Of a stretch of DNA of 64,000 nucleotides, positions 6,986 to 7,466 are shown in pieces; positions within the stretch are counted from its first letter, which is position 1; every line of letters begins with the position of its first letter. The notes under the pieces were generated by a model. It was not told the origin of the DNA. It searched no databases and was given only the letters and a program-made list of their open reading frames with translations. A program made the translations under genes and the position numbers. This stretch comes from Escherichia coli (GTDB lineage Bacteria; Pseudomonadota; Gammaproteobacteria; Enterobacterales; Enterobacteriaceae): the NCBI RefSeq assembly GCF_016026235.1, contig NZ_CP065613.1. One strand, given 5' to 3'.

Positions 6986-7066
6986 TTATAAGAACAGAAG
7001 GATCAGCTGTAAAACAGCAATGATGATTTTGATGACCCGTTTAATCAGGTATCGGCAATCAGTCAT
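6986..7066 (-). CDS. shoB: Type I toxin, small hydrophobic membrane peptide (26 aa)
   Basis: Reverse-strand ATG...TAA encodes MTDCRYLIKRVIKIIIAVLQLILLFL, identical to ShoB as I recall it; too short for the ORF track. Confidence 0.85.
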   Translation of the reverse strand: MTDCRYLIKRVIKIIIAVLQLILLFL

Positions 7067-7141
7067 TCGTTTTTCCTTAAACAAGGAATGCAGCCATTCA
7101 GATTAGCCCTTACATCTCCCCAAAACTGAACGTGAGAGTTA

Positions 7142-7157
7142 TTGAGGGTGCATGCTG
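7142..7157. repeat. Copy 1 of 16-nt repeat TTGAGGGTGCATGCTG, in the presumed shoB 5-prime UTR (antisense orientation in the mRNA)
   Basis: Exact 16-nt match to 7390..7405; extends to 23 nt with 2 mismatches. Confidence 0.8.
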
Positions 7158-7387
7158 TACTCCACACCAGAGCTTTGACGACACCACTCGTTTCAATGGG
7201 GGAATTCTGTGGCATGGTGTAAAGCACAGCAAAATCTTCAATAACGAAGCCAATTTTAATGTACTTACGAATTGGCGGTCACGTTAATCTTTCCATCAAT
7301 ATTGCTTTCTTCGTAAAGGCTCGAGTTTTTATGCTAAAGATTGCAAGTTGCTTGTAAAAGATAAGAACACTGATCCATAATCGCTGT

Positions 7388-7466
7388 TGTTGAGGGTGCA
7401 TGCTGCACAAAATTAAAGTTAAAAAATAAAACCCCCGTTCCTTACCAGTTCGGGGGTTTTACTTTT
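7388..7466 (+). ncRNA. ohsC: OhsC antitoxin sRNA (approximate bounds)
   Basis: Plus-strand segment starting at the second repeat copy and ending at a strong intrinsic terminator (AAAACCCCCG...CGGGGGTTTT then T-run) just before the acpS stop; consistent with the divergent sRNA of the shoB-ohsC type I TA pair. Confidence 0.55.
7390..7405. repeat. Copy 2 of 16-nt repeat TTGAGGGTGCATGCTG, sense in ohsC
   Basis: Exact match to 7142..7157; because shoB is transcribed from the opposite strand, the two transcripts are complementary over this segment. Confidence 0.8.

What the first reader, a model, noticed from the sequence alone, without database searches (positions are those of the whole stretch)
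6986..7466. shoB/ohsC type I toxin-antitoxin locus with a 16-nt exact base-pairing segment
The 26-aa hydrophobic toxin ShoB is encoded on the minus strand, and the sequence TTGAGGGTGCATGCTG occurs twice on the plus strand (7142..7157 and 7390..7405). One copy lies in the presumed shoB 5-prime UTR and the other at the 5-prime end of the divergent sRNA, so the two transcripts are complementary over this segment. This is the trans-pairing arrangement described for ShoB/OhsC, and the sequence directly gives the interaction site. This is established biology, listed because the feature is below the ORF-track size cutoff and easy to miss.
Basis: partly seen in the sequence, partly recalled or inferred. 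Interest (0 to 1): 0.35.

Follow-up and report, generated by a model that had tools for sequence, protein, structure and literature searches.

The report
Known shoB/ohsC toxin-antitoxin locus, confirmed

Summary
TTGAGGGTGCATGCTG occurs exactly twice in the window (7142-7157 and 7390-7405, + strand; 0.06 expected by chance). The 26-aa ShoB ORF lies at 7066..6986 (-). Rfam recognises OhsC at 7389-7465 (+) with 100.4 bits against a gathering score of 50. Gene order and spacing (yfhL-shoB-ohsC-acpS) match E. coli K-12 at 99% identity. Because the genes are divergent, a direct DNA repeat gives complementary RNAs: OhsC nt 1-20 pair with shoB mRNA nt 87-106, about 75 nt upstream of the start codon.

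One correction: the canonical repeat is 19 nt. This strain carries a T at 7158, found in 1 of 5,426 E. coli genomes, which creates a C•A mismatch and shortens the exact repeat to 16 nt.

One addition: about 31% of E. coli carry a second allele in which the 8-nt core is replaced at both sites in concert. That gives six compensatory pairs. Cognate duplexes are -34 to -41 kcal/mol and non-cognate ones about -22. No mixed pairs were found on 79 metagenome contigs, and I found one among 5,426 genomes.

The mechanism is inferred, not shown here: OhsC blocks a standby or entry site on the processed leader and triggers RNase III cleavage. This is already known biology of low interest.

The parts
6986..7066 (-). 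shoB coding sequence: 26-aa hydrophobic toxin MTDCRYLIKRVIKIIIAVLQLILLFL plus stop codon
   Evidence: ORF list. Identical to K-12 b4687 in the alignment. RefSeq names the same protein 'type I toxin-antitoxin system toxin ShoB'.
6935..6968 (-). shoB transcript terminator hairpin (14-bp G+C-rich stem followed by UUUAA)
   Evidence: Predicted fold of the full mRNA. The 3' end is inferred and was not mapped here.
7073..7088 (-). Hairpin around the shoB Shine-Dalgarno sequence: anti-SD UUCCUU (7088-7083), loop GUUU, SD AAGGAA (7078-7073)
   Evidence: Folds. The SD has an unpaired probability of about 0.1-0.2 in nearly all predicted forms, and 0.55 in the window's own +1 form. The RBS AAGGAA is 100% conserved according to PMC11264685 Table 2.
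7141..7160 (-). OhsC target site in the shoB 5' UTR (mRNA nt 87-106, GUACAGCAUGCACCCUCAAU); it contains repeat copy 1 (7142-7157)
   Evidence: Co-varies with the OhsC 5' end across alleles.
7215..7245 (-). 5' leader segment of the full-length (+1) shoB mRNA (nt 2-32), predicted to pair with both flanks of the OhsC target (nt 2-9 with 102-109; nt 16-32 with 78-94) and so mask it; removed in the processed, active +40/41 form
   Evidence: Folds. The energy to open the site is 17-20 kcal/mol in the +1 form and about 7 in the +41 form. The helices are 99% compatible across 11 sequences but have only one compensatory pair, which is not significant. The processing site comes from the literature (PMC5066626, PMC7708055).
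7253..7282 (-). shoB promoter: -35 GTGACC (7282-7277) and -10 TAAAAT (7258-7253); transcription start inferred at about 7246
   Evidence: Promoter scan. The same hexamers are listed for MG1655 and are more than 99% conserved (PMC11264685 Table 2).
7352..7381 (+). ohsC promoter: -35 TTGTAA (7352-7357) and -10 CATAAT (7376-7381)
   Evidence: Promoter scan; PMC11264685 Table 2.
7389..7467 (+). OhsC antitoxin sRNA (77-79 nt)
   Evidence: Rfam RF02495: 100.4 bits against a gathering score of 50, E = 1.3e-16. K-12 ncRNA b4608 maps to these coordinates.
7389..7408 (+). OhsC 5' pairing (seed) region, nt 1-20 (GUUGAGGGUGCAUGCUGCAC); it contains repeat copy 2 (7390-7405)
7421..7467 (+). OhsC intrinsic terminator. 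It is nearly palindromic and is followed by a U-run on both strands, so it probably also terminates the convergent acpS transcript
   Evidence: Fold. Sub-threshold minus-strand Rfam match at 7423-7491. Read directly from the sequence. The palindromy is also noted in PMC11264685.

Best explanation
[quoted passage not shown] Its first 20 nt are complementary to nt 87-106 of the shoB leader, because the two DNA segments form a direct repeat read in opposite directions. The likely mechanism has four steps, marked shown or inferred. (1) The full-length mRNA is inert because its own 5' end masks the OhsC or entry site and the SD sits in a local hairpin (folding shown in silico here; inactivity comes from the literature). 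(2) Removal of about 40 nt from the 5' end exposes the site and allows translation (literature; the accessibility change was reproduced in silico). (3) OhsC pairs with the exposed site about 62 nt upstream of the SD, blocking ribosome standby or entry, and the duplex is cut by RNase III, so ShoB is not made (pairing is supported here by co-variation; standby blocking is inferred by analogy with tisB/IstR-1; in vivo RNase III cleavage comes from the literature). (4) In this strain a private G-to-A change in the mRNA (T7158 on the + strand) weakens the duplex from -41.4 to -34.9 kcal/mol but leaves 16 Watson-Crick pairs plus one G•U in a row. By the rule measured for zorO/OrzO (15 contiguous pairs are enough), that should still repress.
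For: Identity: the exact repeat is non-random; ShoB ORF; Rfam OhsC at 100.4 bits; 99% identity and the same gene order as K-12 shoB/ohsC; the locus is present in 5,425 of 5,426 E. coli genomes, always chromosomal. Pairing: cognate duplexes are -34.2 to -41.4 kcal/mol and non-cognate A/B pairs -21.5 to -23.0. A second allele, in about 1,700 genomes, has the 8-nt core replaced at both sites (AGGGTGCA to GAATCGAG on the shoB side and GAATCGTG on the ohsC side). This gives 6 compensatory pairs and 96% of cells paired, with 0 of 500 shuffles reaching that and 21-47% paired in slid registers. Most single differences between the two copies give G•U wobbles, including the common and cross-species ones, whereas true single-base mismatches are rare or private. 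All 79 evaluable metagenome contigs carry cognate pairs, and chimeric-query searches turned up only one A/B recombinant among 5,426 genomes. Mechanism: the leader is unusually stable (z = -5.9). Opening the site costs 17-20 kcal/mol in the +1 form and about 7 in the +41 form, and the SD and AUG are mostly paired in both. Literature: 19-nt complementarity (PMC3919570); +1 inactive and +40/41 active (PMC5066626, PMC7708055); RNase III cleavage within the putative duplex in vivo (PMC6212723); ShoB depolarises cells and OhsC prevents its expression (PMC8309996).
Against: Nothing contradicts the identification. The weak points concern mechanism only. No expression, toxicity or binding data can be generated here. 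The primary paper (Fozo et al. 2008) was not available and is cited second-hand. The six compensatory pairs all come from one allele replacement, so they represent one lineage and not six independent events. The two sites are only 248 bp apart, so linkage alone would keep mixed pairs rare. The cis-masking helices show only one compensatory pair and are not statistically supported. The standby model for shoB is an analogy and has not been demonstrated.
Confidence: 0.93

Rival explanations
1. dinQ/agrB-like refolding. OhsC does not compete with ribosomes. By sequestering its target sequence it frees another leader element to close the SD hairpin, so repression works through an RNA conformational switch.
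For: PMC5066626 notes that the shoB leader contains four sequence elements allowing a dinQ-like fold, with the second 5' end mapping between elements 1 and 2. The leader is highly structured.
Against: In the partition-function model the SD hairpin (UUCCUU/AAGGAA) is local and forms in both the +1 and +41 forms. Forcing the OhsC site to stay unpaired (mimicking bound OhsC) leaves SD accessibility in the +41 form essentially unchanged, at 0.17-0.20 versus 0.18 in the window and K-12 sequences. This is an in silico test only.
Confidence: 0.2
2. hok/mok-like translational coupling. A leader ORF (GTG 7227 or ATG 7215 to TGA 7063) whose stop overlaps the shoB start (ATGA) has to be translated to open the shoB RBS, and OhsC, which pairs inside this ORF, blocks it.
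For: The frame is open through the whole leader in all 21 indel-free leader variants and ends in an ATGA overlap with the shoB start. PMC4147584 leaves open 'another translational element, like Sok'.
Against: There is no SD in front of either start codon. Both start codons lie upstream of the +40/41 processing site, so the active mRNA lacks them. The ATG is ATA in lineage L014. Substitutions are 4 synonymous against 11 non-synonymous, with most changes at codon position 1, and several contigs carry 1-2-nt indels. No protein family matches above threshold. An open frame of this length has roughly a 7% chance per frame of arising at random.
Confidence: 0.04
3. The two repeat copies are kept alike by DNA-level homogenisation (gene conversion or template switching between direct repeats) and not by selection for RNA pairing.
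For: The two copies are direct repeats 248 bp apart, and the type-B core was replaced at both sites by nearly the same sequence.
Against: The identical flanks around the variable core are only 3 and 8 nt long, far below what homologous recombination in E. coli needs (established knowledge). Differences between the copies are biased towards transitions that preserve G•U (OhsC nt 1, the A' allele, L014, L009), while C•A-type differences are private. The shoB 5' leader, which is not part of the repeat, also changed in the pairing-compatible direction (pair 9:102 is A-U, G•U or G-C). Homogenisation would in any case not explain why the repeat exists.
Confidence: 0.04

Closest known systems
shoB/ohsC (formerly ryfB/ryfC) of E. 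coli K-12 MG1655, b4687/b4608
   Same: Identical ShoB protein, same promoters, same spacing, same flanking genes (yfhL, acpS), 99% nucleotide identity, and an OhsC that is full-length against Rfam RF02495.
   Different: There are seven SNPs over 6900-7500. One of them (T7158, C in K-12) turns OhsC C18:G89 into a C•A mismatch, shortening the exact repeat from 19 to 16 nt and weakening the duplex by about 6.5 kcal/mol. The same change turns the predicted cis pair U21•G89 into U-A.
tisB/istR-1 of E. coli (standby-site model)
   Same: Divergent genes; the 5' end of a short sRNA pairs for about 20 nt far upstream of a structurally sequestered RBS; the full-length mRNA is inert and a form trimmed by about 40 nt at the 5' end is active; RNase III cleaves the duplex (PMC4147584, PMC7708055, PMC6212723). 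The predicted masking and unmasking of the site was reproduced here for shoB.
   Different: No sequence homology. shoB is not LexA-controlled; CpxR boxes are reported instead (PMC9600279). Standby binding has not been demonstrated for shoB.
zorO/orzO of E. coli O157:H7
   Same: Same architecture, with an 18-nt 5'-end seed. The pairing region varies between copies and determines specificity. Repression is independent of Hfq and depends on RNase III (PMC3919570).
   Different: zor/orz occurs as tandem paralogues within one genome, so seed divergence prevents cross-talk. shoB/ohsC is single-copy, and its A, A' and B seed variants are alleles carried by different strains.
hok/sok (mok-coupled) systems
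   Same: A small hydrophobic toxin repressed by an antisense RNA that acts upstream of the toxin RBS. An open leader frame with an ATGA overlap is present.
   Different: Sok is cis-encoded and overlaps its target. In shoB the leader frame shows no coding signature and loses its start codons on processing.

Membership tests
shoB/ohsC type I toxin-antitoxin locus | 26-aa hydrophobic ShoB ORF | tested here: met
   7066..6986 (-) encodes MTDCRYLIKRVIKIIIAVLQLILLFL, identical to K-12 b4687. No Pfam or NCBIfam HMM exists for it, so membership rests on sequence identity.
shoB/ohsC type I toxin-antitoxin locus | OhsC sRNA matching the curated RNA family | tested here: met
   Rfam RF02495: 100.4 bits (gathering score 50), model positions 1-77 of 77, at 7389-7465 (+). 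It is the only match above the gathering score in the 64-kb window.
shoB/ohsC type I toxin-antitoxin locus | Divergent, non-overlapping arrangement between yfhL and acpS | tested here: met
   Same order and spacing as NC_000913.3 2699663-2700998.
shoB/ohsC type I toxin-antitoxin locus | About 19 nt of complementarity between the OhsC 5' end and the shoB 5' UTR | tested here: met
   16 exact pairs plus one G•U, then a C•A mismatch, then 2 more pairs, at -34.9 kcal/mol. K-12 has 19 exact pairs plus one G•U, at -41.4 kcal/mol. Complementarity is maintained across alleles through compensatory changes.
shoB/ohsC type I toxin-antitoxin locus | ShoB is toxic on overproduction and OhsC represses it | not testable with these tools
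   Literature only (PMC8309996, PMC2887945, citing Fozo et al. 2008).
shoB/ohsC type I toxin-antitoxin locus | Both RNAs are expressed from the predicted promoters | not testable with these tools
   The promoter hexamers match those reported for MG1655 (PMC11264685), but no expression data exist for this strain.
Standby-site-regulated type I toxins (tisB/istR-1 type) | The antitoxin pairs far upstream of the RBS, without overlapping the SD or start codon | tested here: met
   The site is mRNA nt 87-106, the SD is nt 169-174 and the AUG is at nt 181.
Standby-site-regulated type I toxins (tisB/istR-1 type) | The RBS is sequestered in stable structure, and the antitoxin site is masked in the primary transcript and exposed after 5' processing | tested here: inconclusive
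   The predictions agree: SD unpaired probability is about 0.1-0.2 in nearly all forms, and site opening costs 17-20 kcal/mol in the +1 form against about 7 in the +41 form. These are thermodynamic models only, and covariation for the masking helices is not significant.
Standby-site-regulated type I toxins (tisB/istR-1 type) | 30S subunits bind the upstream single-stranded site and the antitoxin competes with them | not testable with these tools
   Requires toeprinting or filter binding. Proposed for shoB only by analogy (PMC7708055, PMC4147584).
hok/sok-type (leader-ORF coupled) toxins | A translated leader ORF overlaps the toxin start and is the antisense target | tested here: not met
   An open frame is present, but substitutions are 4 synonymous against 11 non-synonymous, the ATG is lost in L014, the start codons lie 5' of the processing site, and some contigs carry frame-breaking indels.

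The most novel reading that the evidence does not exclude
The shoB/ohsC pairing module exists in E. coli as discrete, mutually incompatible specificity alleles: type A in about 52% of genomes, type A' in about 17% and type B in about 31%. In type B an 8-nt core has been replaced in concert in the OhsC seed and in the shoB target, with an accompanying change in the shoB 5' leader that is predicted to mask that target. This natural compensatory replacement would be in-genome evidence for the trans pairing, and more weakly for the cis masking. The rare recombinant strain Z1323CEC0015 (type-A target with type-B OhsC) would be a natural knock-out of antitoxin recognition. [quoted passage not shown] I could not read Fozo et al. 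2008 or Fozo 2012, which may already show this.
Probability: 0.45. Interest if true: 0.35.

Novelty: already known. Interest (0 to 1): 0.15.

Why it matters
For the genome scan, this is a correct call on a feature that standard annotation tends to miss: RefSeq/PGAP records list shoB but no ohsC feature. Biologically it adds nothing new to the definition of the system. The side result has modest value. It answers in silico a point left open in 2024, whether variable shoB/ohsC pairing regions remain matched within each genome. It also identifies natural allele pairs (A versus B) and a natural mismatched recombinant, which together give a ready-made specificity-swap experiment for testing how OhsC represses shoB, a mechanism that is still only inferred by analogy.

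Tried and rejected
1. A leader ORF coupled to shoB, as in mok/hok. The frame is open and ends in an ATGA overlap, but there is no coding signature, its starts are lost on processing and the ATG is not conserved. Rejected.
2. Search for a third, independent seed allele. Other Escherichia species carry only A or A'. The co-variation therefore rests on a single major replacement event.
3. Covariation support for the cis-masking helices of the +1 mRNA. The helices are compatible with all sequences but not significant (302 of 500 shuffles reach the observed value).
4. Protein family models for ShoB: none in NCBIfam or Pfam.
5. Primary papers: Fozo 2008 (PMC2597788), Fozo 2012 and Kawano 2005 are not held.
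6. The E. albertii and E. whittamii loci were cut off before the shoB site, so they could not be used.
7. The terminator scan found none, because the OhsC terminator loop exceeds the scanner's 8-nt limit. The hairpin is clear in the folds.
8. L007 and L008 have 1-nt and 3-nt insertions in the shoB-side site. I treated these as possible assembly errors and did not interpret them.

Full report
**Observation.** The 16-mer TTGAGGGTGCATGCTG occurs at 7142-7157 and 7390-7405 on the + strand. These are the only two matches in the window even with two mismatches allowed; 0.06 were expected by chance, and none of 100 shuffles gave two. The minus strand carries an ORF whose ATG at 7066 opens a 26-codon frame ending at 6986, encoding MTDCRYLIKRVIKIIIAVLQLILLFL.

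**Identity.**
- Rfam's ohsC_RNA model (RF02495) matches 7389-7465 (+) end to end at 100.4 bits against a gathering score of 50. It is the only match above the gathering score in the whole window.
- In E. coli K-12 MG1655 the curated annotation has yfhL, shoB (b4687, -), ohsC (b4608, +, 79 nt) and acpS with the same spacing. The window is 99% identical to K-12 over 6900-7500 with no indels, which places OhsC at 7389-7467.
- The promoter hexamers found by the scan are those reported for MG1655: shoB -35 GTGACC and -10 TAAAAT; ohsC -35 TTGTAA and -10 CATAAT (PMC11264685 Table 2).
- The locus is present in 5,425 of 5,426 complete E. coli genomes and is always chromosomal. The window is 100% identical over 6800-7500 to strain FDAARGOS_943.

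**Geometry of the pairing.** The two genes are divergent, so a direct DNA repeat yields complementary RNAs. OhsC nt 1-20 (7389-7408, GUUGAGGGUGCAUGCUGCAC) face shoB mRNA nt 87-106 (7160-7141). These numbers assume a start at about 7246, inferred from the -10 element. The site lies 62 nt upstream of the SD (nt 169-174) and 74 nt upstream of the AUG (nt 181).
- In K-12 the exact repeat is 19 nt, and OhsC G1 adds a G•U pair, giving 20 bp at -41.4 kcal/mol. This matches the literature's '19 nt of complementarity' (PMC3919570).
- The window has T where K-12 has C at 7158. This creates a C•A mismatch at OhsC nt 18, shortens the exact repeat to 16 nt and weakens the duplex to -34.9 kcal/mol.
- Only one of 5,426 genomes, FDAARGOS_943, matches the window's site exactly at full length, so the '16-nt segment' is a private variant of the canonical site.
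- In the related zorO/OrzO system, 15 contiguous pairs are enough and 12 are not (PMC3919570). By that rule the window's OhsC should still repress. This is an inference by analogy.

**Evidence that the pairing is under selection.** This goes beyond the original finding.
- E. coli genomes fall into three haplotype groups across 7100-7420: about 2,800 K-12-like (type A), about 900 at 96% identity (type A') and about 1,700 at 85% (type B; for example O157:H7 and IHE3034).
- In type B the 8-nt core AGGGTGCA is replaced by GAATCGAG on the shoB side and GAATCGTG on the ohsC side, while the flanks TTG and TGCTGCAC stay unchanged. Seven of the eight positions changed at each site, and six of them changed to matching bases. 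The result is 19 of 20 pairs with one U•U mismatch, at -34.2 kcal/mol.
- Non-cognate A/B combinations give only -21.5 to -23.0 kcal/mol.
- A formal count on nine distinct OhsC/target combinations gives 96% of cells paired and six pairs with changes on both sides. No shuffle out of 500 reaches this, and slid registers give 21-47% paired.
- Type A' and four other Escherichia lineages differ between the two copies only by G•U-compatible transitions. True single-base mismatches are rare or private: the window's C•A and the A•C in L010.
- Chimeric two-site queries against all 5,426 genomes turned up a single A/B recombinant, strain Z1323CEC0015, with a predicted duplex of -21.5 kcal/mol.
- An independent sample of 80 metagenome contigs gave 79 cognate pairs, no mixed pairs and one contig with shoB deleted but ohsC intact.
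- Caveats: the six compensatory pairs come from one allele replacement, the sites are only 248 bp apart so linkage alone keeps mixed pairs rare, and a targeted scan for a third allele found none.

**Mechanism.** According to the literature:
- ShoB depolarises the membrane when overproduced, and OhsC prevents its synthesis (PMC8309996).
- The longest shoB transcript is translationally inactive, and a form about 40-41 nt shorter at the 5' end is active (PMC5066626, PMC7708055).
- RNase III cleavage has been detected in vivo in the putative shoB/OhsC duplex (PMC6212723).

My folds fit the standby or unmasking picture:
- The +1 mRNA is unusually stable (z = -5.9).
- Its nt 2-9 and 16-32 pair with both flanks of the OhsC site, so opening the site costs 17-20 kcal/mol in the +1 form and about 7 in the +41 form.
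- The SD sits in a local UUCCUU/AAGGAA hairpin in both forms.
- Holding the site open does not change SD accessibility, which argues weakly against a dinQ-like refolding switch.
- The masking helices are compatible with all 11 distinct leaders (99% paired), and pair 9:102 is A-U, G•U or G-C depending on the allele. One compensatory pair is not statistically meaningful, however.

**Rejected alternative.** The leader contains an open frame (GTG 7227 or ATG 7215) that ends in an ATGA overlap with the shoB start and contains the OhsC site, which would resemble mok/hok coupling. Several points count against it:
- It shows no coding signature (4 synonymous against 11 non-synonymous changes).
- Its ATG is lost in one lineage.
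- Its start codons lie 5' of the processing site.
- Some contigs carry frame-breaking indels.
- No protein family matches above threshold.

**Verdict.** The finding is a correct identification of a known locus. The sequence directly shows the published interaction site, shortened here by a strain-private SNP. Novelty: already known. Interest: low. The allele-level co-variation is a modest, checkable addition that I could not find in the literature available to me. The primary 2008 and 2012 papers could not be read.

Noticed in passing
L006 (NZ_CP148423.1, E. coli Z1323CEC0015), equivalent to window 7141-7160 and 7352-7408: A natural recombinant with a type-A shoB target and a type-B ohsC promoter and seed. 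The predicted duplex is only -21.5 kcal/mol (3 + 8 pairs). It is the only such mixed pair I found among 5,426 genomes, and it may be a natural loss of antitoxin recognition.
   Followed up: partly
L059 (metagenome contig QZLQ01000519.1): The shoB coding sequence and most of its leader are deleted, with the terminator stem fused to about leader nt 30, while ohsC and its promoter are intact. This is an 'antitoxin-only' locus of the kind reported for two strains in PMC11264685.
   Followed up: partly
window 7421-7491: The OhsC terminator hairpin is nearly palindromic. On the minus strand it is followed by UUUUAUUUUUU just downstream of the acpS stop (7487), so it probably acts as a bidirectional terminator shared by ohsC and the pdxJ-acpS transcript. 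This also explains the sub-threshold minus-strand ohsC Rfam match (33.4 bits).
   Followed up: partly
window 7063-7227 (-): A 54-codon open frame in the shoB leader (GTG start, or 50 codons from the ATG) whose TGA stop overlaps the shoB ATG (ATGA) and which contains the OhsC site. It is open in all indel-free leader variants examined but shows no coding signature.
   Followed up: yes
window 7236-7240 (-), shoB mRNA nt 9-11: The extreme 5' leader differs by allele: GAAG in type A, GGCG in A' and GGCA in B. In type B these changes are predicted to create four extra pairs with the new target core, which hints at three-way co-evolution of the leader, the target and OhsC. Statistical support is weak.
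   Followed up: partly
window 7367 and 7136, 7426: Further SNPs relative to K-12. A7367 (T in K-12) lies in the ohsC promoter spacer within the variable CpxR box CB2 region described in PMC11264685. A7136 lies in the shoB leader. A7426 (G in K-12) lies in the unpaired A-rich part of OhsC.
   Followed up: no
L017 (CACVCF010000286.1, Terasakiella sp. PR1 assembly): A 231-nt contig identical to the E. coli K-12-type ohsC region within an alphaproteobacterial assembly. This is almost certainly E. coli contamination of that assembly.
   Followed up: no
window 10878-11092, 13876-14707, 32942-37949, 40947-41085, 44396-44521, 62880-63242: Other Rfam matches place the window in the E. coli 2.69-2.76 Mb region: the rncO leader, AsrC antisense RNA, an rRNA operon with a tRNA, RyfD, the pheA leader and tmRNA. 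All are expected features.
   Followed up: no
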